Positions 1 through 43,726 of a DNA stretch of 56,701 nucleotides are shown here, one piece after another. Where the stretch lies: NCBI GenBank assembly GCA_964019425.1, contig OZ025789.1:1488001-1544701 (forward strand). Reading direction: 5' to 3'. Position numbers and translations under genes: made by a program. The stretch comes from Flectonema sp. DT1601. Taxonomy: Eukaryota. Each line of letters begins with the position of its first letter. Within the stretch, counting starts at the first letter, position 1. Under the pieces are notes generated by a model, which did not search any database, was not told the DNA's origin, and was given only the letters and a program-made list of their open reading frames with translations.

Positions 1-247
1 TGTTAGGTGGCTTAGAGAATGAAATGTATTCTCGATCACTACCACACCATCTTTCAAGTTTCGTTTCGTTGTTTTGTTCAAGTGCTAGTAATAGTGCAAA
101 ATCTTTTGTTAGAAAGTGCCAGGACGGCGATGCCTTCTATTCTATGTTGCCACTCAATGGCAACTATTGAAGGAGTTGGTGAGAATACCGGTCACTGACA
201 ATCCATTGAACAATTACTTCATTTTTTTACTCAGGTCACAACAAGTG

Positions 248-19513: not shown

Positions 19514-19766
19514 TTATTTTGTTACACTTGCGCTGTTAACTTTTTAAGCGCTCAGCACCTTCCGTTCTGGTTTCCACCTGTTTCGTTTCTCGCATGTTCT
19601 TTGGCGCAGTTTAAGATCTTTGGTAAGCAACTTCCTTTTCCAGGTTAACAATATGTGGGTTAATAACCCTAAAACCCTTTAGGCCACTTTTCCTTTCGAA
19701 TTTCTTATTTTTTGACAAAGGGGAAAAATGTACTATCCCAAAAAAAAAGACACAATTTTTAAAGCT

Positions 19767-19837
19767 TTAACCCTTACACCCCCCAAAATAACGAGTACAA
19801 AATTTTACTGTTTTTTCAAAAAGAGAAAAGGTACCCT
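19767..19837. repeat. Orphan duplicated piggyBac terminus
   Basis: TTAA-CCCTTACACC...AAAATTTTACTG..TTTTTCAAAAAGAGAAAAGGTACCC repeats 19912-19992. Confidence 0.7.
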
Positions 19838-19915
19838 GTAGCGAGGGAATGGCACTTTGCCACTTACCGCTTGTTGACCGTAAATGCGGGTTATCACGTT
19901 TCCTTTTTGTTTTAA

Positions 19916-21657: not shown

Positions 21658-21869
21658 TTAAGTTTTTTGTTAAAGTGGTTAGATGTGCTACGTTTATTTC
21701 ACAGCGTGTTTCGCCATCTTGAACAACTTTTAATACAGTTTTCGTATCATCAAATACCAGTATATCACTGGCTCCACATAAAAGTGATAATTTTACCCCT
21801 AGTTTTAAATAAATGTAACAATTAGGAGAAAAAAGGTCAACCTCGGCTCTTTATTTTTTTTTCAGGTTC

Positions 21870-23200: not shown

Positions 23201-23282
23201 TGACAGGAGTGGGGTTTGAACCCACGCATCCGAAGATAGAGGAACTTGAGTCCTCCGCCTTAGACCGCTCGGCCATCCTGCC
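23201..23282 (-). tRNA. tRNA-Leu(CAA) copy 1
   Basis: GGCAGGATGGCCGAGCGGTCTAAGGCG-GAGGA-CTCAAGT-TCCTC, long variable arm, GGTTCAAACCC, TCCTGTCA. Confidence 0.95.
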
Positions 23283-23338
23283 ATGTCGGTATCAAAAATT
23301 TTTATTTATTAATAAATAAAATAAATAAACAAAAAAAG

Positions 23339-23575
23339 TTTTTTTTTTGGGAACCTTCCTAGCCGTACTTTCAACCCCTGCTAAGTGAGTCGCCTTTCTC
23401 TACCCTTTCTGTTGGTAGGTGAGTGAAGGTGTGTACTTGGAAGGCGAGCATCTCAAAGTCCGGGGCCCGACCGTTTGCCTTAGTGTCATTAGACTGGATT
23501 TTTTGCAGGGATCCTACCCTGAAAGTTGTCTATGGCCGGACTCGAACCTGGGTCGACACATTACCCAGGGAGCAA
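23339..23575 (-). mobile_element. Candidate tRNA-derived SINE or short retroelement with poly(A)
   Basis: Perfect B-box GGTTCGAGTCC on - (23538-23548); 3' end GGTTCCC-poly(A) at 23339-23348; no A-box seen. Confidence 0.45.
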
Positions 23576-23580
23576 AAATC

Positions 23581-23788
23581 TTATTTATTTATTTTGTCAC
23601 ATCTTTCTTGTCTCTCTTTCATTTTTCTTTTTTTTATATGAACGCTCTTCTTATTTTTTAACAAGACAAAGATACGCGTGCAACTGTCAGGAGTCCGTTA
23701 GAGGTCCTCCACGACAGATCGGCAGCTCCTGACACTGTCTGGGGTTCACTGGTTACCTACGAGCCATGAAGCTCTGCGGATGTCTCAG
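23581..23788 (-). mobile_element. 3'-end fragment of a LINE-B-like element with (TAAA)n tail
   Basis: Reverse complement matches 37406-37667 (CTGAG.ACATCCGCAGAGCTTCATGGCTCGTAGGTAACC...GATGTGAC.AAATAAATAA). Confidence 0.8.
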
Positions 23789-23796
23789 TTAAAAAG

Positions 23797-23880
23797 TTTT
23801 TTTTTTTCTTTGGTCACTTGTCTGTGCTTCCAGATTCTTTGTTTTTGTTCTTTTCACTTCTTTGTTTGTTTCTTTTATAC
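23797..23880 (-). mobile_element. 3'-end fragment of family C with poly(A)
   Basis: Matches 859-950 (GTCTGTGCT.CCA.A.TCTTTGTTTTTGTTCTTTTCACTTC). Confidence 0.75.
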
Positions 23881-23882
23881 TT

Positions 23883-23924
23883 GAAAATTTAGTTCAGGTG
23901 GCGGATGAACAAGAATCTCTAACA
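23883..23924 (+). repeat. Short LINE-A RNase H fragment
   Basis: GAAAATTTAGTTCAGGTGGCGGATGAACAAGAATCTCTAACA matches 29281-29325. Confidence 0.7.
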
Positions 23925-24037
23925 GCAAGTTCTTTTGCAGCAGGGGCACTTATCGGTGAAGATGCTAGGCAGGCAAGTTTATTCCGAAGATTCTTGTGAC
24001 GATTGTGTCAGTTTTTATGCAAGTCAAACATAAAAAC

Positions 24038-24119
24038 TGACAGGAGTGGGGTTTGAACCCACGCATCCGAAGATAGAGGAACTTGAGTCCTCCGCCTTAG
24101 ACCGCTCGGCCATCCTGCC
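24038..24119 (-). tRNA. tRNA-Leu(CAA) copy 2
   Basis: Identical to 23201-23282. Confidence 0.95.
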
Positions 24120-24214
24120 ATGTTTTTCTTTTTTTTTTTTATTTATTTATTTAGGGACCCCACAAAATGCCTCCACGCGGCGGTCTCGGACGGCTGCGAA
24201 AAAAAAAAATTAAA

Positions 24215-26080
24215 ATGGCTGGAAAGAAAGCAATGCGTCCGCAAGATAGAAGGGCTGCAGAAAGGAGAGAAAGAGAAAGGAAAGAGGCGAAGATGATGAG
24301 GGAACAAGCCAGAAATGAGATCCGGGAAGAAGAAGAGACCCAACAGCAAGAAGACGAGGACGTGGTGATGGGAGAATCACCAGAAGTATCAGAGGAAGAA
24401 ATGGAGATGGACTCTCCAGAAGTACCGGAAGGAATCGCAGTAGAGGTGACCGCAGTAGGACCTCCCGCAGCATTTCAAGCAAGCCCTCAAAACAAGGAGG
24501 CAACTCAAACAAAGACAAGCCCTCAAAACAAAGAGGCAATTCAAATAAGCCCTCAAAATATCGAGGCACATGGAAGTAAATTTTTAAAAGCAGATCAAAG
24601 CCCTCCGTCAAATGAGGCACCCCAATCAAGCCCTCAAATCAAAGAGGCACAAAGAAGATCGACGGTGATTATGAATGGACCACCACCGAAGCTAAACAAG
24701 GAGCATTTTAAATGCAAAATACTCCAGCCAACTGAGACCCTCAACAGCAAGACCAACGGCATTATACTTGCATTATCTCAACAAGCAAGAAGCCTGGACG
24801 AAGACTACTTCGAAAAGGCCAGTAAAACGAAGCAACTGACGATGGTGTTCACACGACCACCTCCAAAACGTGCCCTACAACACGCAACTGACTGCAGTCA
24901 GATACAGACACCTGTCCAATTCGATGGGCAATTAAAAATAAGAAGCTGGTGGTTCGTTGCTCTGTCTGGCACGATCCACCGGCCAACTCTAACGATCGCC
25001 AAGAAGATCAACGCACCGGTGACCCACGAATTAATTGCGTGGATAACAACTAAAGAGTTGACCAAGTCACAGGTCCAAAACCCGGCAGCTGTAACAGCAA
25101 TTGTCAAAGCTGTTGTGGCACAACACGGAAGAGTCGATCAACGCTCCTACAGATACGTTGGCAAAGACTTTGTAGAACTCACTGTTCTCCCAAACGATGT
25201 GGAAGCAGCTGTCGCACTTTTAAGAAACTCCGGAATAGGAAATGTTTATTTCCGGATTAAATCAGTGGCGGGACAGACACCCACTCAGTACACCACAGTG
25301 TGGCTGGACCGCAAGACAACAAACGAAGAGGCAGTTGGCATACTTAAAGCCCAACATGACCTCTGCCATGGACTCACCATCATACATGGCAAGATTGGAT
25401 TGAGGGTGGTTTATCAAAAGGATGTTGATAAAGTAAGAAAGGGTGCTGGTAAATATGCATCCACAGTGTTTGGCGAAGGGCTTCACCGTCTCAGTGGAGC
25501 ACCTTACAGCTGGGGTAACAGACTTCGGAATATCCTATTGGAGATAGGACTGAAGTCAAAGTTCATAAGGATGGATAGAGGTGACTTTATCATCGCACTG
25601 GACAAGAAACCAGAATCAAGGTTTGTACAGTGTGGAGATATTGTCATCCTCATTGAAAAGTTAGAAACAGAAGTGAAGGCGAAGGAAACAGCGAAACCCG
25701 TTGTAGTTAAGTACCGTGAGGCTAGAACATCGTACGCAGCCGCGGTCAAGAGGTCACTCCCGACAACGAAGAAACCAACGGCCGAAGTTCAGGTTGTAGA
25801 AAACAACGTGAACAGCCTGAGAGAGAAAACGAACGAGACAATCGAACGTCTTCAGAAAGAAGTGAAGGACATGCAAGTTCGACTTGATGAAGGCATGGCA
25901 CAGATAACCGGGATTGTAGAAACCCTGGTGCAAACTACGAAAAAGAACGAAGCAGCCAACAACAACATGGCGACAGCCATCACTTCGCTAATAGAAGCTG
26001 TCAAGAGGATTGAGAACAATCTTGGTATGAACAAGATTACTACAAGTGCGACCAACAGGAACAACACTGGCCAATCATGA
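24215..26080 (+). CDS. LINE-A ORF1 (621 aa; in frame with LINE-B ATG at 24167)
   Basis: SPQNKEA repeats; SGIGNVYF...VWLD...GKIGLRV domain shared with ORF1 of B; C-terminal coiled coil. Confidence 0.85.
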   Translation: MAGKKAMRPQDRRAAERRERERKEAKMMREQARNEIREEEETQQQEDEDVVMGESPEVSEEEMEMDSPEVPEGIAVEVTAVGPPAAFQASPQNKEATQTKTSPQNKEAIQISPQNIEAHGSKFLKADQSPPSNEAPQSSPQIKEAQRRSTVIMNGPPPKLNKEHFKCKILQPTETLNSKTNGIILALSQQARSLDEDYFEKASKTKQLTMVFTRPPPKRALQHATDCSQIQTPVQFDGQLKIRSWWFVALSGTIHRPTLTIAKKINAPVTHELIAWITTKELTKSQVQNPAAVTAIVKAVVAQHGRVDQRSYRYVGKDFVELTVLPNDVEAAVALLRNSGIGNVYFRIKSVAGQTPTQYTTVWLDRKTTNEEAVGILKAQHDLCHGLTIIHGKIGLRVVYQKDVDKVRKGAGKYASTVFGEGLHRLSGAPYSWGNRLRNILLEIGLKSKFIRMDRGDFIIALDKKPESRFVQCGDIVILIEKLETEVKAKETAKPVVVKYREARTSYAAAVKRSLPTTKKPTAEVQVVENNVNSLREKTNETIERLQKEVKDMQVRLDEGMAQITGIVETLVQTTKKNEAANNNMATAITSLIEAVKRIENNLGMNKITTSATNRNNTGQS

Positions 26081-29000
26081 TTGTGATTTGGTCAAATAAC
26101 ATTCGCTCAGTTCTGAAACCAGAAAATTACTTTCGATTGAACTGGGCACTGAAAGAAGAAAAGCCTGAAGTAGTACTACTGCAGGAAACGTGGTTATCAA
26201 AAGAAAAACACTTCGCTATTGAAGGATATTCAATCCACAGGAGAGACAGCACCATCAAGTCAGGTCATCGAGGACTCGTCACTCTGGTCAGAAATGATTT
26301 AAATAAGTTAATATTAAAACACCCCGACATCTCACATGACCAAACTGAGATATTAACAGTAGTACTTCAATCTAATCCGCCATTGACAATTCACAATGTT
26401 TACCACCCGCCTGAAATCAAGGCAACAACCTGGAAGTTCAAAACAGAGCCCGGCACATTGATTGCGGGTGACATTAATGGACACCATTCAACTTGGTCAA
26501 ATGGTAATACGAACACCACTGGTAACAGCTTCTACGATTGGTCACTAGAAGCAACAATTAAAATTCTAAATAAACCTCAACAACACACAAGACCACAAAG
26601 CTCAGCTTCTCCGGATGTAATTGCATTAGATATTTCAATAGATGCACAAATCGAACTCATGAAGGGATGGGGCAGCGATCACCTGCCACTCAAACTGACA
26701 ATCGAAGATATCAAAACAGATGAATATTCAAAAGAGAGTTCTGGGACATGGAAATGGAAGTGGCATTGTGCCGATTGGAATTATTATAAAATATTGTTGG
26801 AAAGGGCAGCGCCCAAATTAGAAAGAATTAAGAAGGTGCAGAAACTTGCTAATAGGATCAACAACGAGATTCTGAGAGCAGCGAGTAGGGCCATCCCAGG
26901 CTACAACAAAAAGTCAAGTAGTACCTTCGCTGTGAGGGATTCAGAATTGGAAGATTTAATGGCAGAGACTGACCCTGATAAGACAGACTCAGAAGCAATT
27001 GAAAGAGGTATCAACATGATCAAACAGAAGATCATTGAGTGCGACATGACTGGAATGGACTACCGATGGGCCTTTAGAAAAGTTAAACAACTGGAAGGTA
27101 GAATGATGGACCATTCAATTACTAAGATTGTCGACGGTGAGAAGGAATTAACCGACTCGCGGGAGATGGCAGATGTCTTCACCAAAACATACGCAGACCA
27201 ATTCAAATTCGAAGACGGTGAAACAACCTTACAAGGAATACCTGATGATAACTCGGTGGAATTTGGAATGCCTGAACTGGAACGACAAATTTCAAAAACA
27301 AAGGAGAAGAAGGCACCTGGACCTGACCACATCTGGAACTCGATGTTAAAACAACTTCCAAAAGCTTTCCTCGAGCAACTACTAAGACTATTCAACCTCT
27401 CATGGCAACGATCAGCAGTACCCAGGTGCTGGAAAAGTGGAATGGTAATACCCATACTGAAACCTGATAAAGACAAGAAACAAGTCCTATCGTACAGACC
27501 GATAGCACTAACCTCGACCGTCTCGAAACTCTTTGAAAGAATGGTCGTAGAACGGATGCACCACCTGTTGAAAGACAGAATGAATCCGAGGCAAGCAGCC
27601 TACAAACGAGGACGGGATTCCATTGAAAATCTCTGTATAGTTACAGACAAACTCAAAAGTGCCAAGGCAATGGGAGAAGAAGCGATATTAATCACCTTCG
27701 ACCTACAAAAAGCCTTTGATGCAGTTCAACCGGTAACTCTTCTAAATAAGATGTCCAAAATAGGACTACCAACGAAATATCTACGGTGGGTTCAAAACTA
27801 CTTGACTAGTAGGAAGATTTCAACAAGGGTGAATGGAGTGAAGGGAGCATTCCGGAACATTCGAGTAGGAGTACCACAAGGAAGCGTGCTGGGACCCCAG
27901 TTATTCTCTATCTTCATAAATGATTTGATAGATAAACTAGAGATGTACGAACCGACTGTCTTTGCAGATGATGTTGGAATAGTAATAACCGCGGGCACTG
28001 TCAGCTGTTTAGAAAACAAGGTTAACAACGCAGTCAAAATATTTGAAAGGTGGGCACTTGACTCACACATCAAAATCAATAAGAACCCTGGCAAGACGGA
28101 ATACATTCACGTGAGGCCAAGTGGAACACATGACAAGTCCCCAGTAGTAGTATACTCTGAAGAACACACATTTAAATATGTGGTGGCCACGGCAGAACAA
28201 ATGAGTAACCTTGTGAAGGATGATAACTCAACAACTGTAGCTTCAAAAGAAGAATTCGCCATCACTCACCTGTATGTCGTTCCAAAACATAAGATCAAAG
28301 TCAAGCTACCGAACAAACCGGCGGTACTGAAAACAATGAAGATGAGTGCCCGCTTCCCACAACTGAAGAAAGTCCACAACAAGGCAGAAATAGATAAGAT
28401 GCTGGAAAGAGTGGGACCCGGATTACACGGATTTGCCTATGCGGTTGGACGAAAAGTTCACAAGACGAATACCGTGCGGTATCTAGGCGTACATTATGAC
28501 GAGAAGTTAACCTTTAAGTCGCAAATTCAAAAGATGATGACAGCTGCTTCCAAGGGTCTAGGCTTGTTGGTTAGACTCACCAGGATAGGCTGCAGAAAGA
28601 GGACACTCATCAGTATACTGGTGACGGTGGTGTTAGCAAGGGTGCTTTATGGTGTTGAAAGCTTTGCTTGGATGCTACCAAAAGAGTGCTTCGAACAACT
28701 GGAATTACTGGTAAACAGGGCAGTGAGGCTGGTAACTGGATGTCTGCGGAGCACCAAACTACAGAGACTTTACAAAGAAGCCGATACGCCAAGACTAAAG
28801 GAACACATCCAGTATAAGATGTGTAGAACTTATGAACGTTTCAAATTGAGTCCGTTCCTACCGACTCGCAAGCTGACGAGAACAGGGAGTTCAGAATTAT
28901 TTCAAAAATCGAAATGGGGATGGAATGTCTGGATAGACTATGTCTCTGGTGTCCCTGGCCTTGACAACTACCGGAGCATTACCAACCTGGAAGTGAACCC

Positions 29001-29994
29001 AGAACACTACACTGTCCCTCCATGGAAAAGTACTAATGCGATGAAATTCACATATTCACGCAACAAGGAAGAGGCTGAACAGCGAGAAACTGAATTACCA
29101 GCTCACGAGATGAAAGTCTACACTGACGGGTCGATAAGACACAAACCCAACACGTACATGACAGACGCGGCTGCCGCTGTGGTCATGGTTAACGAAAGCA
29201 AGATGCGTCTACTTGGATATAAAATACCAGTAGCGGGTTCCTCTTATAGGACCGAGCAGATTGCAGTGAAACTGGCGTTGGAAAATTTAGTTCAGGTGGC
29301 GGAGGATGAACATGAATCTCTAACAACAACGACGCACCTGTTGACTGATTCGATGTCAGTCATGCAGGCATTGGAACAAGGGCCATATAAACAAAGGTCC
29401 CCAATGAACAAAAAGATCTGGAAGTTGGCAATGAAACTGGAGAAGAAGGGAATCCAAGTCAACATGCAGTATGTACCGGCACACAGAAACGTGCGGTACA
29501 ACGAAGTAGCGGACCAACTGGCGAAATTCGCTGCAGGCCTGAAGGAAGATCCACCTCACGAAGATGTTATTATTAAACAACTGCCCACTCAACTTGACAT
29601 GGGAACATTGATGACGTTTCACAAGCGGAGAAAACGGGAGAACTGGATCGGACCGGGAGAGGTAAGACACCCTCCGTACATCGAAGCTCTAACACGACCA
29701 GAGGAAGTACTGATGTCACGCTTTAGAGTGGGACATTGTAGATCTCTGATAATCAAAGGACTGAACGAGCTGTGCTTTTTCTGTAAACTTGGAAAGGCGA
29801 CAGCACATCATGTATTATTTATATGCGAACATTGGTGTATAGAAACCTTGAGAGAAAAATACATCAGTCACATGATGAATGACAAGGGAGAGGAAGCATG
29901 CCAACTGGAGGACTGCTACTTACCTGCGAATCAACAGCAGATGACTGGTTTTGTCACAACCTTAGACAGACTGGCACAACTATTAGGACGGTAG
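26077..29994 (+). CDS. LINE-A ORF2: AP endonuclease, reverse transcriptase, RNase H, Cys/His knuckle
   Basis: LLQET, GDINGH, SDHLP; YRPIAL, DLQKAFD, GVPQGSVLGP, FADD, YLGV; YTDGS, LTDS, YVPAH, NEVAD; CFFC...HVLFIC. Confidence 0.95.
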   Translation: MIVIWSNNIRSVLKPENYFRLNWALKEEKPEVVLLQETWLSKEKHFAIEGYSIHRRDSTIKSGHRGLVTLVRNDLNKLILKHPDISHDQTEILTVVLQSNPPLTIHNVYHPPEIKATTWKFKTEPGTLIAGDINGHHSTWSNGNTNTTGNSFYDWSLEATIKILNKPQQHTRPQSSASPDVIALDISIDAQIELMKGWGSDHLPLKLTIEDIKTDEYSKESSGTWKWKWHCADWNYYKILLERAAPKLERIKKVQKLANRINNEILRAASRAIPGYNKKSSSTFAVRDSELEDLMAETDPDKTDSEAIERGINMIKQKIIECDMTGMDYRWAFRKVKQLEGRMMDHSITKIVDGEKELTDSREMADVFTKTYADQFKFEDGETTLQGIPDDNSVEFGMPELERQISKTKEKKAPGPDHIWNSMLKQLPKAFLEQLLRLFNLSWQRSAVPRCWKSGMVIPILKPDKDKKQVLSYRPIALTSTVSKLFERMVVERMHHLLKDRMNPRQAAYKRGRDSIENLCIVTDKLKSAKAMGEEAILITFDLQKAFDAVQPVTLLNKMSKIGLPTKYLRWVQNYLTSRKISTRVNGVKGAFRNIRVGVPQGSVLGPQLFSIFINDLIDKLEMYEPTVFADDVGIVITAGTVSCLENKVNNAVKIFERWALDSHIKINKNPGKTEYIHVRPSGTHDKSPVVVYSEEHTFKYVVATAEQMSNLVKDDNSTTVASKEEFAITHLYVVPKHKIKVKLPNKPAVLKTMKMSARFPQLKKVHNKAEIDKMLERVGPGLHGFAYAVGRKVHKTNTVRYLGVHYDEKLTFKSQIQKMMTAASKGLGLLVRLTRIGCRKRTLISILVTVVLARVLYGVESFAWMLPKECFEQLELLVNRAVRLVTGCLRSTKLQRLYKEADTPRLKEHIQYKMCRTYERFKLSPFLPTRKLTRTGSSELFQKSKWGWNVWIDYVSGVPGLDNYRSITNLEVNPEHYTVPPWKSTNAMKFTYSRNKEEAEQRETELPAHEMKVYTDGSIRHKPNTYMTDAAAAVVMVNESKMRLLGYKIPVAGSSYRTEQIAVKLALENLVQVAEDEHESLTTTTHLLTDSMSVMQALEQGPYKQRSPMNKKIWKLAMKLEKKGIQVNMQYVPAHRNVRYNEVADQLAKFAAGLKEDPPHEDVIIKQLPTQLDMGTLMTFHKRRKRENWIGPGEVRHPPYIEALTRPEEVLMSRFRVGHCRSLIIKGLNELCFFCKLGKATAHHVLFICEHWCIETLREKYISHMMNDKGEEACQLEDCYLPANQQQMTGFVTTLDRLAQLLGR

Positions 29995-30246
29995 TATTAT
30001 TAAAACATCGACATTTCGAATATCAACATTGAAGGCATCATTGCAACACATCTGAAGTCGTCCAAGTGGGCAATTAATTATGTAGTATTAGTTTTAAGTT
30101 ATCAAAACAAAGAAAGGAGATACGAAGCCTACGGGATTCCCACCCCCAACCCCCAAAACAAAGAAAGTAAGAAAGAAAGAAAGAAAAAGAACAGCCGCGC
30201 CTAACAGCGCAAACAGCATCACAGACTCACGGGTCGTGGTGCACTC

Positions 30247-30277
<31 letters not shown>

Positions 30278-30281
30278 TGCG

Positions 30282-33200
30282 GCCGACAAAAAATTGTAGG
30301 GATGAAGCAAGAGGACGACCAGCTAACCGGACGCTCTCTAGCAAACAAAGGAACAAGCTTGCTCACACGATCAACGGAAATGGGCCTAAGATAGAAGAAA
30401 GGGAAAGGCTGGACCGAGACAACACCCGGGTAGACCGGGGAGAAACGAGGAAGAAACCGGCGGAGAGGAGACTCAAGAAGCAGCAAGAGGACCAGGAGGA
30501 AGAGAGGAAGGAGCTGCTCAGCAAACATGAGCTCCTTGAAGCACAACAAAAGAAGCTGGACGAGCAGCACAGGCAGCAACAATTAGATCTCTTTCAGGAA
30601 AAGCTCCAACTGGAACAAGACTTGGAGGATCACAAGAATCAACAAGTGGAGAAACAACAACTACTGGAACAACAACACCAGCAGCAGCAGCTTGAGCTTC
30701 ACCAAACGAAGCATCAGATGCAACAGGAACTGGAGAACCAACAACAACAACAGCATGAAAAGCAACAACAGCAGCAACAGCAACTTGATCATCAAGTCCA
30801 ACAGCAGCAGGAAATTCAACAGCAGCAGCAACAGCAACTTGATCATCAAGTCCAACAACAGCATCTAAACCATCAACAGAGCCAAGAACTATTTAACCAA
30901 CAACAGCAAGAATTGCTTAAGTTCAAGGCAGACCTCCAACAAAAACAGGAGATAATCCTGAACCAACAGCAGCAACTCGAACAGCAGCACAGCAAGGAGA
31001 AGGATATCGAGAGAGAGTCTCTCCGCAGGAGAAGATGTCAACTCGAGGAAGACCACCGTCAACAGCAACTTGAACAGTCCAGGATTCAACAGGAACTGCA
31101 ACTGCAACAGACAAGCCTGGAGGAAAAACAGCATCTGCTACAACAGCAATTTAATGTGGAATTGGAAAAGGGTAAACTGGAGTTACTGGACTTACAGCAA
31201 CAACTGGAGAAGAAAAACCAGGAAGGTCTGAAGGAGCAGGAGGTGGCTCTACAGCTTAAACAACGGCTGCTTATCGAACAGCACAACAAGGAGAAGGAGG
31301 ACGGGAAGCAGGAGTTATTGGTCCTGCAACAGCAACTAAGCGAGCAACGTCTGCATGATCAGCAGCAACAGCAACAGAGAAGCGAGGAGTTAAAGAAGCA
31401 AGAAGAAGACCTCGAACTTCAACGACTCCAACTGCAACGCCAGCAGGAGGATGAAATGGAGAAGGGCAGATATGAGCTCCAGAGTCTCAGGGACATGCTG
31501 GGTATGGAGTTTGAGGAACAGAAGACGTCACTAAAAATCCAAGGGGATAATCTTCGCCATCAGCAACAACAGCTCCAGCAACAACAGCAAATCTTCCAAG
31601 AAAAAGAAGAACGACTTGATCAGTACTACGTACACCAGCCTTATGCCACCGACACCAACTCCCACTACCAACTTCCTCAAGACCCCCGGTTTGATGAACT
31701 TCAGAGGGAGCTACGTCAGGAACGGGCTGAGAAAGGAGAACTTAGGGAGCTGCTGAAATCTCTTCAACACCAACTGAAGGAAATGACGCAAGAACTTAAC
31801 TTGCAGAGAATGGAAGCTCAGGAGCAAAGGGAGGCTGCCAAGAAAGAGTCACTAGGAATGCAAGCCCGCTACCTGCAGGAATTACAAGCGGAGAGAGCTC
31901 AGGTGAAGGAGCTCAATCACTTGAGGGCGGATGAAGATGATGTTGCGATGGCAGTCGTACAACGGGAAGTCGCATCGGATGAGAATCTCCATCTGAATAT
32001 GATGCGTGAACTGGAAGGGGACAGGAAAAAGAGCTCGAAGGTAATTACTGAAGCTCAACTGTCTGAGAGGGAGGGTCTTAGGACTCAGATGACGAAGGAG
32101 GAGGGTAAGCTTGCACTCGTTCAAGGCAAGTTCGAAAATGATGCCCTGAAGGAGGAGGCTTTGGTGACGAGACTGGAGCTGGTGCCGGAGTACTGGCCGG
32201 ATAACATGGTGTTATCAGAGGCTAGCTACAAGGCTGGTGGGAGAGGAGTGTACCTCACAACCACGAAGGAAGTAAGAAGGAGAATGGCTGGGGCTGAGCT
32301 GGGTGCCTGGGAATCGCTGACCTTGGTCACGTTGTTTCCCCCTACGGATAAAGCGAAGGAAGTGCAGGTCGTGTTGAAGGTGAAGACTGACGATGGGGTG
32401 AAGAGATCTCTGAGGAGGCTGTGGCTATCAGCCCTGGGTAGGGAGGTCCTCCCAAAAGGAACGGATATCAGTGCGACGGTAAGAACGAGGGAACTGGTTG
32501 CTCGGTTGGACAAGAGATGGGCCGAGGAGAAGAGATGGTTGGAGGTGAAGCGTTCTCCGATGAAACTATCCCAGGAACTGAAGAAGTTACCGGGGTACGT
32601 TGATACCTACAACGCTAGAGTAGGTGATCAACAAATAACGGTCATGCTGCGGGTAAAGGAAACGGAGGTGAAGAACTTCCTCAGGGAGTCAGGGAAGGAG
32701 GGCACCTTTACCAAAGAAAGAGATCACCTGGATGAGAAGGCAGTGAAGGCATCTGTTCTGTGGTTGCCGAAGGATGACACCCTCAGTTTGGCGAGAGACA
32801 AGGCGGAAGAAGTTGAGGGAGGTCTAGGGTTAGTGCTTAACGAGTATGGCCTTGGTATAAGGGTTAACAGTTGGCATGAGAAGGCTGCGAGGGAGATGTT
32901 GCACCTGCCGGCGAAACTTCCGGAGACCAGGATCTCGGGAATCCCAATAGGAACTTCGACGGATGAAGCGGTGAAATACCTCATCTCGAGGGAAGGATGG
33001 GAGGTGAGGAAGATGAAGGATGGTGTTCGGAACGGGATGCGGTGGATGGTCGTGCGTGGTCCCGAGAGGGATGGCGAGACTGTCACCATCGACGGAGTCC
33101 TTTGTCTACTCGAGCCGATGAAGAAGAAGGTGGTTGCTCCTGTGAAGTCGGTCAAAGTAGCCCCGAAGGTGAAGGAACAGAAGCCGGAAAAGCGAAGGGA

Positions 33201-33471
33201 TCCTTCGGAGGGCACGGACAAGTGGTATACGCGTGTGGAATTCATTGCGTACCACGGTAAGAAGAAGGGAATCCGTCTGTGGGGGAAGGCATCGCAGAAC
33301 GCACAGGAAGCTTCGGTGAAGCTGGAATCGGTATCGACCCCTGAACAGCAGAAACAGAACAAGAAGGAAAAGAATACACCTCCAAAGAATGATGAACGGA
33401 AGAAGTGTTCAGTCGAGGATAGACTGGAACGTCTTGAGCGTCTGCTCTTGTCGCTTGTAGGGAGCAAGTGA
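30282..33471 (+). CDS. LINE-B ORF1, 3' portion (poly-Q coiled coil plus conserved domain); true start at 24167, reconstructed length 1073 aa
   Basis: Frame is open from the TSD (cgg ccg aca aaa aat tgt agg gat...) to TGA at 33469-33471. Confidence 0.85.
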
Positions 33472-36400: not shown

Positions 36401-37335
36401 GCAGCGAACTTAGGCCATGTACCTCGTCCATTTTTGTTGACGGATCCCACGACCCTGTCAACTACACGGCAGGCGCAGCGGCAGTGCAGATCACGCCGTG
36501 TGAACGGACCATGGCATCGAGACTAGTTGCAACGGAAAGTAGTTATAAAGCTGAACAGGTAACTCTGAAGCTGTTAATAAGTGAATTTGGAAAAGCAACC
36601 TCTGTCTTGGGTCCCAGATCTGGAATCACGAGAGTCTTCAGTGATTCTAAATCCAATCTGGATGAGCTGCGTGGTGGAATTGCGGCTCAGAGGAAGCTGA
36701 ACTCTCTCTCGATACTAGAAGGGATAAGAAAATTAGACTCATTCGTACACCTTCAATTCATCCCAGCTCACGTGGGAATTGAACCGCATGACAAGGCAGA
36801 TGAACTGGCGAAAAAGATCTCAAAAGATGTTAAGAGCAAGCCGGTGTCAACGACTATGGACTTCTTCGCACATAAGTCAAGGATAGCGAGGGAAGCTAAC
36901 AGAAAGCTGTTTGGTAAGATTATGGAGGGTTCAACAAGGGCGAAACCACCGATCAAACGGGTGATGCTTAGGCAGTATCTTGATGCTACCGGAGGCCTGA
37001 GAGCGGCTCGATACCCCAAGGACATGCTGAGAGAATCAGAGATAAGGATAGCCAGGTTCAGAACGGGTTCTCACCCCCTGCTCAGGGTAAATGAACTACC
37101 GATAAAGTGCCCCTTCTGCAAAAGAACAGACTCTTCTGCCCGACATCTAATATTTGATTGCGAGGATGGTGACGTGGTCCGCATTAGAGAAGGAACAATT
37201 AGATCAAACATTCAGGAAGCGAGAATCTCCGAGACCAAACTAAATCTTTCAATAATGTTTGCGACGAGAAATCTTCACGCCCTAGCCGGCTACTTATGGC
37301 ATTTGGAACAACGAACAGGCTTATCAAACTGTTAA
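33472..37335 (+). CDS. LINE-B ORF2 preceded by a 2A peptide; no AUG before the endonuclease N-terminus
   Basis: LDGRDWAETRRRLLLLAGDVERNPGP-RRRHDGPTSELRVISWNCRT...DVLCLQET...; RT YRPITL, GVPQG, YADD; RNase H FVDGS, FSDSKS, FIPAHVG; CPFC...HLIFDC. Confidence 0.92.
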   Translation, partial: LDGRDWAETRRRLLLLAGDVERNPGPRRRHDGPTSELRVISWNCRTINGREEFIGNILGKYSPDVLCLQETSVRKPLHHWNYITYRRDRPGRGGGIITMVKRGLQHACYEVCIPSVRGIVETLGVRINDEINVLNVYSPPSSKIDFDLFPLKRDERFIFAGDFNAHHKLWSKKTDTKGCQLLEWCRSNNLLIANDPGFVTLPRHGTSPDAILHHEELLLLHFGLIGDGTEHGSDHLPLAAVFDTFSPLETVNNQASKKSVWDFNTADWYSFRHDLDYRLSKVNSPPKVGIRAATFNRILLHVAKKNIRRRLRIQGKRRRMWNSSTPETKQAKGKFVAEKLAQGEGFAFAFKKIKDLDADGGQDVQIPEFSEDQLPSKFLDQFVKTSVRKQLKSSKLKPSDYVGACGPLVMSELERAIKKVKTGKAPGPDGIHGAMLKNLSATGRRFLLAVFNDSWLSARVPKVWKEGMIKPVYKPGKPKEKLSSYRPITLTSVVGKMLERIIYDRLMYWLTSNNALSSIQAGFRRGRNTCEQISLLVNALHGARKGGKSSILLSFDFTEAFDRINHVKLIAKMVTMGIPSPFIGWVANFLTRRKAKVSVNGNLSAYRTVTKGVPQGSIVGPLLYLIFVDDLAKKLEKTGCVSALYADDTACVVSNKDFKVTYRMAQLVLGLVDRWCKDNDMALSVSKTCGMPVDCPRNMYWRLGFPRTSGENFFRISREELAGMIRSNEEGRPLLGNGAMILKLGDTEVTKASELLELMPVGPDPTWVKLLTAVLMPMVDSVKYLGVHIDDDLTYGTQVDKLLDETRKGLVLLRKLELFNFDFKTLNMIKNLYILSRILYGLESYGPFLTDEQLKPIDLNLRKIARKITGCGFNTRSLPLLWEANILPMRLQIEKQARIALFRYRSLDWVPSTKGIASGTWSSTLPAEDRNMEIQGIVMPDSIEPWIDVPNLEISCGYGHSKTGVAEVDKAKFEEYCSELRPCTSSIFVDGSHDPVNYTAGAAAVQITPCERTMASRLVATESSYKAEQVTLKLLISEFGKATSVLGPRSGITRVFSDSKSNLDELRGGIAAQRKLNSLSILEGIRKLDSFVHLQFIPAHVGIEPHDKADELAKKISKDVKSKPVSTTMDFFAHKSRIAREANRKLFGKIMEGSTRAKPPIKRVMLRQYLDATGGLRAARYPKDMLRESEIRIARFRTGSHPLLRVNELPIKCPFCKRTDSSARHLIFDCEDGDVVRIREGTIRSNIQEARISETKLNLSIMFATRNLHALAGYLWHLEQRTGLSNC
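33499..33549 (+). other. 2A-like StopGo peptide (RRRLLLLAGDVERNPG|P)
   Basis: Exact D(V/I)ExNPGP consensus preceded by a hydrophobic helix. Confidence 0.92.
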
Positions 37336-37756
37336 CTGATTGGTAGTTGCTAATTCATTAGTATCATTCTTCCTTATCACACTCCTTAATCAACTCCTAA
37401 TTTCTCTGAGGACATCCGCAGAGCTTCATGGCTCGTAGGTAACCCAGTGGTCTTTGGCCACCGTCCCTGTACTGATCCTTCGCTTTATATTAACTGTGTC
37501 TTGAGATTCCTATCCGGGGAAGTCCTCCAACGGACTCAGGACAGTTGCGCTTGTTTTTACTTGTTTACTTTATCAAAAAATAAGAAGGGCAAGAATGCTC
37601 AGAATGAAGAAAAATAAAGTGGAAAGACAGGGGGGATGTGACTAAATAAATAAATAAATAAATAAAATTTTTTTTTTATTTATTTACTTTTTTTCTCTTC
37701 TTTTTTCTTCTTTTTTTTTCTTCTTCCCTTTTCCCTTATTTTCCCCTCTTTTTTTT

Positions 37757-40211
37757 TTCTATCTTCATAAACGATTTGATAGATAAACTAGAGATGTACG
37801 AACCGACTGTCTATGTTTCAGGGTATTTTTGTGAGGAAGAACTAATCACACACATCGAAAGGAAGACAAGTTTCTCGCTACTGGGTTCTGATGTGAAGGA
37901 ATATGTTATGGAACTTATTGATAACGCTTATAAAGTTACCGATTTAAATGTTGTTATTGACGACCTTTCTATGGTTAATGTGCTGGTCAATCCTAGCTGG
38001 TCGGAATCCAAGCTTTCTAAGTTCCTCTCTCGCCTAAGTCGCCTCCTGCGAAGTAATCCCCTAGATAATGAACGTCTCTTTCCTCTAGTGTAATTTCTTA
38101 TTTTATTTATTAGTATCATTTCTCTTACTTTATTTCTTATTTTCTGATCTAATGTGGCGTGTTCTCCCTATCTTTGGCGAAAATTGGCGTTATCAGCCGT
38201 CTCTAACACTGTCTGCTCGCGTGGACGGTGGGTTTAGGTAGTCATTTGTTCCAGGTTATTCTACGTCTCTTATCGTCTGTGAGAGTCTCACGGTTGCTGG
38301 TAGCGATATAACTGTTACTCTGTGAGCTTTTCCTGGCTTTTGGCTTCCTAGGCTTCGTAAATAAATAAATAAATGTTGAAGTAGTAATAACCGCGGGCAC
38401 TGTCAGCTGTTAGAAAACAAGGTTAACAACGCAGTCAAAATATTTGAAAGGTGGGCACTTGACTCACACATCAAAATCAATAAGAACCCTGGCAAGACGG
38501 AATACATTCATGTGAGGCCAAGTGGAACACATGACAAGTCCCCAGTAGTAGTATACTCTGAAGAACACACATTTAAATATGTGGTGGCCATGGCAGAACA
38601 AATGAGTAACCTTGTGAAGGATGATAACTCAACAACTGTAGTTTCAAAGAAGAATTCGCCATCACTCACCTGTACGTCGTCCCAAAACATAAGATCAAAG
38701 TCAAGCTACCGAACAAACCGGCGGTACTGAAAACATTGAAGATGAGTGCCCGCTTCTCACAACTGAAGAAAGTCCACAACAAGGCAGAAATAGATAAGAT
38801 GCTGGAAAGAGTGGGACCCGGATTACACGGATTTGCCTATGCGGTTGGACGAAAAGTTCACAAGACGAATACCGTGCGGTATCTGGGTGTACATTATGAC
38901 GAGAAGTTAACCTTTAAGTCGCAAATTCAAAAGATGATGACAGCTGCTTCCAAGGGTCTAGGCTTGTTGGTTAGACTCACCAGGATAGGCTGTAGAAAGA
39001 GGACACTCATCAGTATACTGGTGACGGTAGTGTTGGCAAGGGTGCTTTATGGTGACGCCAAGACTAAAGGAACACATCCAGTATAAGATGTGTAGAACCT
39101 ATGAACGTTTCAAATTGAGTCCGTTCCTACCGACTCGCAAGCTGACGAGAACAGGGAGTTCAGAATTATACCAAAAATCAAAATGGGGATGGAATGTCTG
39201 GATAGACTATGTCTCTGGTGTCCCTGGCCTTGACAATTACCGGAGCATTACCAACCTGGAAGTGAACCCAGAACACTACACTGTCCCTCCATGGAAAAGT
39301 ACTAATGCGATGAGATTCACATATTCAAGCAACAAGGAAGAGGCTGAACAGCGAGAAACTGAACTACCAACTCACGAGATGAAAGTCTACACTGACGGGT
39401 CGATAAGACACAAACCCAAGACTTACATGACAGACTCGGCTGCCGCTGTGGTCATGGTTAGCGGAAGCAAGATGCGTCTACTTGGATATAAAATACCAGT
39501 AGCGGGTTCCTCTTATAGGACCGAGCAGATTGCAGTAAAACTGGCGTTGAAAAATTTAGTTCAGGTGGCGGAGGATGAACATGACAGACTCGGCTGCCGC
39601 TGTGGTCATAGTAAAAGAAAGCAAGATGCGTCTACTTGGATATAAAATACCAGTAGCGGGTTCCTCTTATAGGACCAAGCAGATTGCAGTGAAACTGGCG
39701 TTGGAAAATTTAGTTCAGGTGGCGGAGGATGAACATGAATCTCTAACAACAACGACGCACCTGTTGACTGATTCGATGTCAGTCATGCAGGCATTGGAAC
39801 AAGGGCCATATAAACAAAGGTCCCCAATGAACAAAAAGATCTGGAAGTTGGCAATGAAACTGGAAAAGAAGGGAATCCAAGTCAACATGCAGTATGTACC
39901 GGCACACAGAAACGTGCGGTACAACGAAGTAGCGGACCAACTGGCGAAATTCGCTGCAGGCCTGAAGGAAGATCCACCTCACGAAGATGTTATTATTAAA
40001 CAGAACATTGATGACGTTTCACAAGCGGAGAAAACGGGAGAACTGGATCGGACCAGGATAGGTAAGACACCCTCCGTACATAGAAGCTCTAACACGACCA
40101 GAGGAAGTACTGATGTCACGCTTTAGAGTGGGACATTGCAGATCTCTGAAGAACAAAGGACTGAACGAGCTGTGCTTTTTCTGTAAACTTGGAAAGGCGA
40201 CAGCACATCAT
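37757..40211 (+). pseudogene. Degenerate 5'- and 3'-truncated LINE-A copy
   Basis: High similarity to ~27905-29811, with frameshifts, deletions, an insertion at the FADD codons and a ~153-bp tandem duplication (39428/39581). Confidence 0.9.
37818..38372 (+). mobile_element. 3' end of another LINE (family D) with (TAAA)n tail
   Basis: ORF remnant ending at 38093, 3' UTR, TAAA repeats at 38358-38373, ATGTT direct repeats at 37813-37817 and 38373-38377. Confidence 0.6.
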
Positions 40212-40670
40212 AGAGTTTCTTCTTGATCTTTCTCCCAAGCTCACTTTATTTTGCTCGTGACCAAAGGTAACACCTAAAAATTCATACTCCTGTGACATCT
40301 TGACTGTGTCATTAGCTTCCAAGTAATATTTGCTGTCCTGGCAAGACAGTCCATTCTCTCAGTTGCACACCTGACCTTCTCCTTCTCCCCGAAAAGTCTG
40401 ATGTTATCGATCCACCAATGATCCCAATCTCCTTCTCCGCATATTCTTCTTTAACAAACAGCGGGTCACCAGAAACAACAGTGTTCATCAACACTGGGCG
40501 CATTGGCAGAGAATATGCATTGCCAGACGAATCATAAAAACTAAACAATGAAGTCGATTCCTCAGGTATGCAGACCTGGTAAAATCCTGTTTTGAAATCC
40601 CTACATGAAGCAACCTCTGAATCCGGTAATGTGAACAAAGGTTCGTAACCTTGTGCAGATATCATCTCAT
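40212..40670 (-). pseudogene. TATE/VIPER (DIRS-group) reverse transcriptase fragment
   Basis: RDFKTGFYQV, LPM, GDP, frameshifted WIDNIRLFG (tgg atc gat aac atc aga), YEFLGVTF. Confidence 0.7.
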
Positions 40671-40873
40671 TCTGTTCCTTCGTTCAGAGGATGAATCTCT
40701 GTCTCAGTTTCCTTTTCTTCGAAAACCATGAATGGCACATTCTTGGAAGGTGGTACAGAATCAAAAGGTACAGCTATATCGCAAGAAGACTCAAATGCTG
40801 ATGAGAGAAATTGGCTAAGCTGACTCAACAGGTAAAGAAAGAAAGCTTTGATTCTGTTACATCACCCTAAAAC

Positions 40874-40955
40874 TGACAGGAGTGGGGTTTGAACCCACGC
40901 ATCCGAAGATAGAGGAACTTGAGTCCTCCGCCTTAGACCGCTCGGCCATCCTGCC
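40874..40955 (-). tRNA. tRNA-Leu(CAA) copy 3
   Basis: Identical to the other two copies. Confidence 0.95.
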
Positions 40956-40968
40956 ATGTTTTCTGTAC

Positions 40969-41025
40969 TTTTTTTTTTTTTTTTTTTTGGTTACACTCGT
41001 CTGTGCTTCCAGACTCTTTGTTTTT
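40969..41025 (-). mobile_element. 3'-end fragment of family C with poly(A)
   Basis: Poly-T then GGTTACACTCGTCTGTGCT, as at 859-899; 13 nt upstream of tRNA-Leu. Confidence 0.8.
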
Positions 41026-43726
41026 AACCGACTCGCGGGAGATGGCAGATGTCTTCACCAAAACATACGCAGACCAATTCAAATTCGAAGACGGTGAACC
41101 AACCTTACAAGGAATACCTGATGATAACTCGGTGGAATTTGGAATGCCTGAACTGGAACGACAAATTTCAAAAACAAAGGAGAAGAAGGCACCTGGACCT
41201 GACCACATCTGGAACTCGATGTTAAAACAACTTCCAAAAGCTTTCCTCGAGCAACTACTAAGACTATTCAACCTCTCATGGCAACGATCAGCAGTACCCA
41301 GGTGCTGGAAAAGTGGAATGGTAATACCCATACTGAAACCTGATAAAGACAAGAAACAAGTCTTATCGTACAGACCGATAGCACTAACCTCGACCGTCTC
41401 GAAACTCTTTGAAAGAATGGTCGTAGAACGGATGCACCACCTGTTGAAAGACAGAATGAATCCGAGGCAAGCAGCCTACAAACGAGGGCGGGATTCCATT
41501 GAAAATCTCTGTATAGTTACAGACAAACTCAAAAGTGCCAAGGCAATGGGAGAAGAAGCGATATTAATCACCTTCGACCTACAAAAAGCCTTCGATGCAG
41601 TTCAACCGGCAACTCTTCTAAATAAGATGTCCAAAATAGGACTACCAACGAAATATCTACGGTGGGTTCAAAACTACTTGACTAGTAGGAAGATTTCAAC
41701 AAGGGTGAATGGAGTGAAGGGAGCATTCCGGAACATTCGAGTAGGAGTGCCACAAGGAAGCGTGCTGGGACCCCAGTTATTCTCTATCTTCATAAATGAT
41801 TTGATAGATAAACTAGAGATGTACGAACCGACTGTCTTTGCAGATGATGTTGGAATAGTAATAACCGCAGGCACTGTCAGCTGTTTAGAAAACAAGGTTA
41901 ACAACGCAGTCAAAATATTTGAAAGGTGGGCACTTGACTCACACATCAAAATCAATAAGAACCCTGGCAAGACGGAATACATTCACGTGAGGCCAAGTGG
42001 AACTCATGACAAGTCCCCAGTAGTAGTATACTCTGAAGAACACACATTTAAATATGTGGTGGCCACGGCAGAACAAATGAGTAACCTTGTGAAGGATGAT
42101 AACTCAACAACTGTAGTTTCAAAAGAAGAATTCGCCATCACTCACCTGTATGTCGTTCCAAAACATAAGATCAAAGTCAAGCTACCGAACAAACCGGCGG
42201 TACTGAAAACAATGAAGATGAGTGCCCGCTTCCCACAACTGAAGAAAGTCCACAACAAGGCAGAAATAGATAAGATGCTGGAAAGAGTGGGACCCGGATT
42301 ACACGGATTTGCCTATGCGGTTGGACGAAAAGTTCACAAGACGAATACCGTGCGGTATCTAGGCGTACATTATGACGAGAAGTTAACCTTTAAGTCGCAA
42401 ATTCAAAAGATGATGACAGCTGCTTCCAAGGGTCTAGGCTTGTTGGTTAGACTCACCAGGATAGGCTGCAGAAAGAGGACACTCATCAGTATACTGGTGA
42501 CGGTGGTGTTAGCAAGGGTGCTTTATGGTGTTGAAAGCTTTGCTTGGATGCTACCAAAAGAGTGCTTCGAACAACTGGAATTACTGGTAAATAGGGCAGT
42601 GAGGCTGGTAACTGGATGTCTGCGGAGCACCAAACTACAGAGACTTTACAAAGAAGCCGACACGCCAAGACTGAAGGAACACATCCAGTATAAGATGTGT
42701 AGAACTTATGAACGTTTCAAATTGAGTCCGTTCCTACCGACTCGCAAGCTGACGAGAACAGGGAGTTCAGAATTATTTCAAAAATCGAAATGGGGATGGA
42801 ATGTCTGGATAGACTATGTCTCTGGTGTCCCTGGCCTTGACAACTACCGGAGCATTACCAACCTGGAAGTGAACCCAGAACACTACACTGTCCCTCCATG
42901 GAAAAGTACTAATGCGATGAAATTCACATATTCACGCAACAAGGAAGAGGCTGAACAGCGAGAAACTGAATTACCAGCTCACGAGATGAAAGTCTACACT
43001 GACGGGTCGATAAGACACAAACCCAACACTTACATGACAGACTCGGCTGCCGCTGTGGTCATGGTTAACGGAAGCAAGATGCGTCTACTTGGTATATAAA
43101 ATACCAGTAGCGGGTTCCTCTTATAGGACCGAGCAGATTGCAGTAAAAATGGCGTTGGAAAATTTAGTTCAGGTGGCGGAGGATGAACATGAATCTCTAA
43201 CAACAACGACGCACCTGTTGACTGATTCGATGTCAGTCATGCAGGCATTGGAACAAGGGCCATATAAACAAAGGTCCCCAATGAACAAAAAGATCTGGAA
43301 GTTGGCAATGAAATTGGAGAAGAAGGGAATCCAAGTCAACATGCAGTAATGTACCGGCACACAGAAACGTGCGGTACAACGAAGTAGCGGACCAACTGGC
43401 GAAATTCGCTGCGGGCCTGAAGGAAGATCCACCTCACGAAGATGTTATTATTAAACAACTGCCCACTCAACTTGACATGGGAACATTGATGACGTTTCAC
43501 AAGCGGAGAAAACGGGAGAACTGGATCGGACCAGGAGAGGTAAGACACCCTCCGTACATCGAAGCTCTAACACGACCAGAGGAAGTACTGATGTCACGCT
43601 TTAGAGTGGGACATTGCAGATCTCTGATAATCAAAGGACTGAACGAGCTGTGCTTTTTCTGTAAACTTGGAAAGGCGACAGCACATCATGTATTATTTAT
43701 ATGCGAACATTGGTGTATAGAAACCT
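41024..43726 (+). mobile_element. Recent 5'- and 3'-truncated LINE-A copy (RT-RNase H)
   Basis: Near-identical to 27148-29848; single-base insertions near 43093 and 43348; ends abruptly at the repeat array. Confidence 0.93.

What the first reader, a model, noticed from the sequence alone, without database searches (positions are those of the whole stretch)
23201..41030. Several LINE families target the region just upstream of tRNA genes, each at its own distance and orientation
Seen: family C poly(A) ends lie 15 nt (859) and 13 nt (40969) upstream of tRNA-Ala and tRNA-Leu, co-oriented with the tRNA. LINE-B starts ~34 nt upstream of tRNA-Leu, divergent. LINE-A 5' ends lie ~80 nt (24199), ~70 nt (41024) and ~100 nt (37757, after removing LINE-B) upstream of tRNA-Leu, all divergent and at unrelated target sequences. 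Four of five tRNAs have retroelement stacks upstream, while the 5-19 kb gene array shows none. Known: Dictyostelium TRE5 and yeast Ty1/Ty3 use Pol III machinery for position-specific insertion. Inference: an independently evolved tRNA-targeting retrotransposon system in this lineage.
Basis: partly seen in the sequence, partly recalled or inferred. Interest (0 to 1): 0.85.

Follow-up and report, generated by a model that had tools for sequence, protein, structure and literature searches.

The report
LINEs stacked upstream of diplonemid tRNAs
In a marine diplonemid protist, several related retrotransposon families sit in stacks that begin a dozen or so bases in front of tRNA genes, likely because they aim at the tRNA-transcription machinery, a strategy so far described in yeasts and slime moulds.

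Summary
Observation confirmed; interpretation likely but not proven. The host is a diplonemid. Four of five tRNA genes carry a stack of RNase H-bearing LINEs directly upstream. Target-site duplications exclude the tRNA and the tRNA flanks differ, so these are separate insertions, not duplicated units. Correction: families B and C do not have separate distances. Both duplications start 12 nt before the mature tRNA (-12..-30, -12..-22), in opposite orientations, near the expected transcription start. Family A lands further out (-69 to -102). Chance placement is unlikely (about 1e-5; post hoc, one window); 21 other A/T runs carry no LINE, and a DNA-transposon remnant lies 1.5 kb away. Protein fragments from other loci repeat the A-against-C geometry but show no tRNA. 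No genome was available, so the genome-wide test is open; all five tRNAs lie on one strand, so orientation is confounded with chromosome direction. A Pol III tether is inferred by analogy only. I found no report of this in Euglenozoa.

The parts
527..598 (-). tRNA-Ala(CGC), no element upstream (the unoccupied tRNA)
772..843 (-). tRNA-Ala(CGC), occupied
855..865 (.). Left copy of the 11-nt target-site duplication of C (-12..-22); right copy 2514-2524
866..2514 (-). Family C LINE, 5'-truncated (ORF2 residues 877-1253, RNase H and zinc knuckle, 3' UTR, poly(A)); co-oriented with the tRNA
   Evidence: 98.7% to P0176, cluster of 101 members; Pfam RNase_H; run X2 contig follows it to 2514
2525..3470 (-). 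Older element-derived DNA ('E') with two copies of a 3' UTR motif shared with B; family not identified
   Evidence: local alignments z 10.4 and 10.1 against shuffles; no ORF2 match
23201..23282 (-). tRNA-Leu(CAA) 1
23293..23335 (.). A/T-rich stretch, possibly a tail-only insertion between 6-nt repeats at -11 and -48 (speculative)
23349..23790 (-). One composite insertion: B-like 3' UTR and tail (23581-23790) joined to a 232-nt unit with a B-box-like motif and poly(A) ('D'); flanked by a 16-nt duplication 23333-23348 / 23791-23806 (-51..-66)
23797..23882 (-). 3' end of an older C copy, cut on its far side by a short A fragment (23883-23928, +) and a B fragment (23929-23957, -)
24038..24119 (-). 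tRNA-Leu(CAA) 2
24131..24149 (.). Left copy of the 19-nt target-site duplication of B (-12..-30); right copy 37668-37686
24150..37667 (+). Full-length LINE-B (ORF1 1073 aa from 24167 when A is skipped; in-frame stop; 2A-like motif; APE, RT, RNase H-like region, zinc knuckle; TAAA tail), interrupted by A
   Evidence: cluster of 74 members
24199..30274 (+). Full-length LINE-A inside ORF1 of B (ORF1 621 aa, ORF2 1305 aa: APE, RT, RNase H, zinc knuckle; A28 tail); 7-nt duplication 24192-24198 / 30275-30281 (-73..-79)
   Evidence: cluster of 91 members
37752..40211 (+). Old, rearranged 5'-truncated A copy (-96..-102 before B arrived), with a further TAAA-tailed element ('F', 37816-38373) nested in it
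40874..40955 (-). tRNA-Leu(CAA) 3
40969..41023 (-). 3' end and poly(A) of a C copy (tail from -14)
41024..43726 (+). 5'-truncated A copy (99.1% to the full-length one), 5' junction at -69..-71, broken at its 3' side by the 8-mer array
19912..21661 (.). Control, not part of the system: TTAA-flanked element with perfect 18-nt inverted ends (piggyBac-like), 1,540 nt downstream of tRNA-Leu 1

Best explanation
Related LINE families have inserted again and again just upstream of tRNA genes in this diplonemid, likely because their insertion complexes are guided by the RNA polymerase III machinery bound there. Shown: separate insertions with their own target-site duplications; B and C both border position -12, in opposite orientations; A lands at -69 to -102, divergent in 4 of 4 copies. 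Inferred: -12 is about the transcription start, so B and C would cut at the start site on the near side of TFIIIB, and A would cut beyond it; local A/T tracts and older tails likely fix the exact base; each new copy pushes older ones outward, which builds the stacks. Untested: which element protein binds which factor (ORF1 as in TRE5-A, or RNase H as in DGLT-A).
For: Stack starts at -12, -12, -14 and -51..-57 at 4 of 5 tRNAs; chance 5.6e-7 to 1e-5. Two duplications from different families, genes and orientations share the -12 border. Polarity: nearest element junction downstream of the Leu genes is at 81, 663 and 1,540 nt, and the 81-nt one is the far end of the next stack. 0 of 21 other A/T runs of 8 or more carry a LINE end. 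A DNA transposon remnant survives in the same non-coding block away from tRNA 5' ends, so the block tolerates insertions elsewhere. Outside the window, two truncated A copies begin in the antisense of a C 3' end, 32 and 65 nt from C's terminus, as at Leu3 (35-37) and Leu1 (71) (P0133, P0502). Precedent: tRNA start sites lie about 10 bp before the mature 5' end, DGLT-A uses -13..-33, TRE5 -40..-54, NLTR-B -39..-64, and TRE5-A ORF1 binds TFIIIB (PMC5911963, passages); DGLT-A RNase H binds Tfc4 (PMC6101501, passages); stacking at one tRNA is noted in PMC5006619 (table note).
Against: One window, four loci; no genome. No locus outside the window was shown to have a tRNA: 0 of 13 flank-derived peptides read as antisense tRNA, though few flanks can be seen this way. 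All three duplications of the B/C kind lie in T-rich tracts that look like older tails, and 4 of 12 flank peptides among 120 listed cluster members show a copy directly behind another element's poly(A) tail, as tail-seeking predicts (template jumps would also give this). The unoccupied tRNA-Ala lacks such a tract. The Leu1 stack fits -12 only under a speculative reading of a 6-nt repeat. A's spread (-69 to -102) is wide, and every A copy landed in or next to older element DNA. All five tRNAs are on one strand, so 'divergent' equals 'towards the window end and with the gene array'. P0133 rests on 5 residues, and such peptides are visible only within about 54 nt of one start codon.
Confidence: 0.6

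Rival explanations
1. No protein tether: tRNA genes at the end of a polycistronic gene array leave open, nucleosome-poor DNA just upstream; LINE endonucleases cut there passively, then keep cutting in the tails of earlier copies.
For: tRNA loci are open chromatin in Trypanosoma cruzi (PMC9158160, passages); trypanosomatid retroposons gather at strand-switch regions (PMC4748587, passages); D. papillatum gene clusters are separated by TE-rich regions (PMC10161547, passages). Several families (A, B, C, D, E, F) share the same sites. Duplications lie in T-rich tracts.
Against: Open chromatin alone does not predict a border shared to the base at -12, nor A keeping to -69 or further while B and C use the near window, nor the lack of insertions on the 3' side.
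Confidence: 0.27
2. Sequence preference plus selection: the elements seek poly(A)/(TAAA)n tails or T-tracts anywhere; copies in gene arrays are purged; tRNA neighbours are only where survivors pile up.
For: Head-to-tail junctions behind poly(A) tails in 4 of 12 flank peptides; C's duplication ends in a T-run that could prime on poly(A).
Against: 21 other A/T runs, 18 of them in long non-coding gaps, are empty. B's priming strand ends in A, which cannot pair with its tail (inference from the TPRT model). The first copy at each of four loci still had to land next to a tRNA. A single duplication brackets the B-like tail plus D, which shows head-to-tail joins can arise in one event.
Confidence: 0.09
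3. The tRNA-plus-LINE units are duplications of one ancestral insertion, retrocopied tRNAs, or assembly artefacts.
For: The three tRNA-Leu genes are about 99% identical; the window ends in a 13-kb repeat array.
Against: Identity stops within a few bases of the genes on both sides; each stack has different families and junctions; duplications bracket the LINE and exclude the tRNA; ORFs of A and B are intact.
Confidence: 0.03

Closest known systems
Dictyostelid NLTR-A and NLTR-B (Spaller et al. 2016, PMC5006619)
   Same: Non-LTR elements with APE, RT and RNase H found at set distances upstream of tRNA genes; related families with different offsets (2-6 bp and 39-64 bp).
   Different: Host is Amoebozoa; offsets differ; no 2A motif or opposite-orientation pair is mentioned in the passages read. 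Sequence kinship with A/B/C could not be tested.
Dictyostelium TRE5-A/B/C
   Same: LINE, upstream of tRNA genes, opposite orientation (like A and B), stacking at one gene.
   Different: TRE5 is L1-clade without RNase H and uses -40..-54; here RNase H is present, windows are -12..-30 and -69..-102, and C is co-oriented.
Ty3 and DGLT-A (LTR elements)
   Same: Insertion at or near the Pol III start site (DGLT-A 13-33 bp, either orientation), matching the B/C window.
   Different: Integrase-based LTR elements; these are target-primed LINEs.
Trypanosomatid ingi / L1Tc (Ingi clade)
   Same: Euglenozoan host; APE-RT-RNase H; 2A-like motif just before the APE domain (B, C, C2).
   Different: Ingi-clade elements lack ORF1 (PMC3708506, passages) and carry the 77-nt Pr77 leader; A and B have long ORF1s and only about 16-17 nt before the start codon. 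No tRNA targeting is mentioned for them in the passages read.

Membership tests
APE-type non-LTR retrotransposon (LINE) | APE endonuclease and RT in ORF2; poly(A) or short-repeat tail; 5' truncation; target-site duplication | tested here: met
tRNA-gene-targeting retrotransposon (TRE5-like behaviour) | Junctions at a narrow distance upstream of tRNA genes at several independent loci | tested here: met
   4 of 5 tRNAs in the window; -12, -12, -14, -51..-57; window only
tRNA-gene-targeting retrotransposon (TRE5-like behaviour) | Most copies genome-wide are tRNA-associated | not testable with these tools
   no genome; collection scans empty; runs too thin
tRNA-gene-targeting retrotransposon (TRE5-like behaviour) | Fixed orientation relative to the tRNA | tested here: inconclusive
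   A divergent 4 of 4, C co-oriented 3 of 3, B divergent 1 of 1, but all tRNAs on one strand
tRNA-gene-targeting retrotransposon (TRE5-like behaviour) | Dependence on the B box; binding to TFIIIB or TFIIIC | not testable with these tools
   needs experiment; host factors are not in the window
TRE5 family (L1 clade) | ORF2 without RNase H; -40..-54 window | tested here: not met
   RNase H in A and C; offsets differ; TRE5 features
Ingi clade | APE-RT-RNase H with 2A-like motif before APE | tested here: met
   B, C, C2 carry the motif; A does not show it
Ingi clade | Single ORF, no ORF1 | tested here: not met
   ORF1 of 621 aa (A) and 1073 aa (B)
Ingi clade or NLTR-A/B group | RT phylogeny with named reference elements | not testable with these tools
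   no ingi, L1Tc or NLTR sequence came from any tool; the tree has only unnamed or loosely named outgroups

The most novel reading that the evidence does not exclude
One old radiation of RNase H-bearing LINEs in diplonemids, at least eight families in this genome and shared with Flectonema, has divided the tRNA upstream region around the Pol III complex: the B/C branch cuts at the start site (-12) in either orientation, the A branch beyond TFIIIB (-70 to -100). This would be tRNA targeting in a third eukaryotic supergroup and a natural series for mapping how one tether changes its offset.
Probability: 0.35. Interest if true: 0.8.

Novelty: new variant of a known kind. Interest (0 to 1): 0.62.

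Why it matters
Position-specific insertion next to tRNA genes is described for yeast LTR elements and dictyostelid elements. A case in Euglenozoa would show the strategy arising again in a lineage with polycistronic transcription, in LINEs of a different build. Young, intact copies of families with different offsets and orientations make the targeting domain testable by swaps, and position-specific LINEs are of interest as safe-harbour insertion tools. My ten literature searches (listings only, except the papers named) showed no such report for diplonemids or other Euglenozoa; the library lacks most subscription journals and Repbase.

Tried and rejected
No whole genome is held. Related-locus scans gave nothing usable: viral contigs with B/C and A alignments, genome contigs with the A alignment and with a tRNA-Leu pattern, metagenome contigs one distant locus, 25% identity, no tRNA. 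Two sequencing runs hold a small share of the region, no RNA holder listed; X2 has A and C contigs at depth 2-3 but no contig across a tRNA junction, and X1 gave only short weak matches. Four look-ups in earlier findings returned nothing. ORF1 structure: single-sequence model pLDDT 36, not used; Atlas hits all under 0.9; only 5 relatives at E up to 0.001; no Pfam family of note (4 proteins scanned of the 11 first intended); A and B ORF1 are only weakly alike (E 0.025). Idea that Pol III transcribes the LINEs: T-runs are not depleted in A and only mildly in B; dropped. Two flank peptides (P0124, P0125) are compatible with a B box and an A box on the sense strand, but set-level chance was 0.02 with motifs chosen after looking; not counted as evidence. 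No hairpin tested folded better than shuffles. Rfam found no ribozyme. I first read the B-like piece at 23581-23790 and P0416 as proof that B inserts in both orientations; the single duplication around that piece plus D shows it may be a passenger, so I withdrew that. No complex prediction was run. Supplements of PMC10161547 were searched by term in 7 held files with no relevant passage; its section on repeats may not be among the files held.
Full report
Setting. The window has a plus-strand gene array from about 3.6 to 19.5 kb (ankyrin, NAPRTase, amidohydrolase, HEAT-repeat and PPPDE proteins), a non-coding block to 43.7 kb, and 13 kb of an 8-mer repeat. The HEAT protein's best named matches are Diplonema papillatum (60%) and other diplonemid transcripts. 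The nearest named relatives of the LINE proteins are all from Flectonema neradi (41-58%). The host is therefore a diplonemid (Euglenozoa); I did not go further. No genome is held.

The elements. A (24199-30274) and B (24150-37667, interrupted by A) are full-length, with open ORF1 and ORF2; ORF2 has APE, RT and, clearly in A and C, RNase H, ending in a zinc knuckle. A and B ORF2 are 26% identical, C is 38% identical to B. In the protein collection A, B and C fall in clusters of 91, 74 and 101 members, and five sister clusters (31, 39, 42, 26, 37 members) lie on the same set of long ENA contigs, judged by shared contig lengths. Members include fragments and possibly a second haplotype, so these are not copy numbers; most listed members are 97-100% identical to their references, so the families are young. 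In an RT tree of 40 rows (of 129 candidates; 66 dropped for the length of the matched stretch, the rest of the outgroup thinned by half), the 8 own and 8 Flectonema families form one side of a branch at 92/94, below the threshold for a firm branch; the A and B/C branches are each 100/100 and each holds Flectonema members. So both branches are older than the split of the two hosts; their common origin is likely, not shown.

The observation. All five tRNA genes are on the minus strand. Four insertions have clear target-site duplications: B, 19 nt at -12..-30 of tRNA-Leu 2; A, 7 nt at -73..-79, inside codon 10 of B's ORF1 (the ORF reads through as 1073 aa when A is skipped); C, 11 nt at -12..-22 of tRNA-Ala 2; and a composite of a B-like 3' end plus a short B-box-bearing unit, 16 nt at -51..-66 of tRNA-Leu 1. 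None includes the tRNA. The three tRNA-Leu genes are 99% identical but their flanks differ within a few bases. That disposes of the duplication reading.

What the offsets say. B and C, in opposite orientations at different tRNA genes, share the border at -12 (a T-run makes it uncertain by about 2 nt for B); the C tail at tRNA-Leu 3 starts at -14. PMC5911963 (passages) puts tRNA start sites about 10 bp before the mature end, so this border is near the expected start; that is an inference, not mapped here. A copies join at -69..-71, -73..-79 and -96..-102, and a 46-nt fragment at -143 (or about -106 under a speculative reading). At tRNA-Leu 1 the nearest firm end is -51..-57; a 31-nt A/T stretch between 6-nt repeats at -11 and -48 might be a tail-only insertion, which would move the older events to -14 and -20, but a 6-nt A-rich repeat can be chance.

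Controls. Random placement of four stacks within 60 nt upstream of a G1 has probability 5.6e-7 to 1.0e-5. 0 of 21 other A/T runs of 8 or more carry a LINE end; picking the four tRNA-adjacent ones by chance gives 7.9e-5, or 0.008 among the nine beyond the gene array. A TTAA-flanked DNA-transposon remnant at 19912-21661 shows that the block tolerates insertions away from tRNA 5' ends. These figures are post hoc and from one window that was picked for the pattern.

Outside the window. DNA scans and read sets gave no second locus. The only view came from called proteins of truncated copies that start in their flank: 12 of 120 listed members (a 13th flag was a substitution) plus P0502 from the ORF1 search. 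Two A copies start in the antisense of a C 3' end, 32 and 65 nt from its terminus (P0133, 5 of 5 residues; P0502, 15 of 16), as in the window (35-37 and 71). Four copies start directly behind another element's poly(A) tail in the same orientation (P0416, 44 of 47 residues matching C's 3' UTR; P0145, P0430, P0441 behind A-type tails). One carries a short piece of A (P0472), two are weakly compatible with tRNA promoter boxes, four are unassigned. None reads as antisense tRNA. So stacking and the A-against-C geometry recur elsewhere, but a tRNA at those loci is not shown. Head-to-tail joins fit either tail-seeking or template jumps by the RT; the composite under one duplication at tRNA-Leu 1 shows that such joins can be one event.

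Mechanism. I commit to guidance by the Pol III complex (0.6), with local A/T tracts setting the exact base. The step from 'placed relative to the tRNA' (I put this at about 0.85) to 'tethered by a protein contact' rests on analogy: TRE5-A ORF1 binds TFIIIB and DGLT-A RNase H binds Tfc4 (PMC6101501, passages). The main rival (0.27) is passive use of open chromatin at tRNA genes, known in T. cruzi (PMC9158160, passages), with later growth in older tails. ORF1 gave no structural lead.

Comparison. It works like TRE5, NLTR-A/B and DGLT-A, but is not TRE5 (RNase H, other windows). It shares the 2A-like motif and domain order with trypanosome ingi/L1Tc but has ORF1, which that clade lacks (PMC3708506, passages). 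NLTR-A/B (PMC5006619, passages) are the closest in build and behaviour; kinship could not be tested for want of reference sequences. PMC10161547 (passages) lists D. papillatum retroelements and 211 tRNA genes without linking them in the passages I saw.

Verdict. A real, clean pattern; probably a new, independent case of tRNA-upstream targeting; one window short of proof. Interest 0.62.

Noticed in passing
window 43721-56701: About 1,620 copies of AAACCCGC start at a break inside a LINE-A copy, at a 5-nt match to the unit. The C-rich strand runs towards the window end, the reverse of usual telomere polarity (recalled). Another A copy elsewhere (P0503) is joined to a short internal array in the same polarity. 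Reversed-polarity telomere, fusion or satellite: not resolved.
   Followed up: partly
window 33469-33552: In LINE-B the ORF1 stop is followed in frame, with no ATG, by a 2A-like motif and then APE; readthrough or a non-AUG start followed by ribosome skipping is predicted. C and C2 have an ATG before the same motif.
   Followed up: partly
window 26077-26080: LINE-A joins ORF1 and ORF2 by an overlapping start-stop (ATGA), as in termination-reinitiation.
   Followed up: no
window 24150-24215: A and B have only about 16-17 nt before ORF1, too short for a Pr77-like leader; A's 5' end is an A11 run, and the first 11 codons of B are fused in frame to A's ORF1 (637-aa protein P0486).
   Followed up: partly
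window 23349-23580 (-): 232-nt unit with an exact B-box-like motif at 23538-23548 and a poly(A) tail, no A box seen; possible SINE or transduced flank.
   Followed up: partly
window 19912-21661: piggyBac-like non-autonomous element with perfect 18-nt inverted ends including TTAA; a second left-end copy at 19766-19836.
   Followed up: partly
window 37816-38373 (+): A further TAAA-tailed element with a short C-terminal ORF unlike A, B or C, nested in the old A copy; no Pfam family.
   Followed up: partly
window 772-843: The two tRNA-Ala genes differ at one base, next to the anticodon; the changed copy is the occupied one and scores lower in Rfam (61.4 against 66.2 bits).
   Followed up: no
P0124 and P0125 (unnamed ENA contigs): Flank peptides of two truncated A copies are compatible with tRNA promoter boxes on the sense strand, which would mean tRNA-LINE chimeras or insertions into tRNA-like heads; weak, post hoc.
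   Followed up: partly
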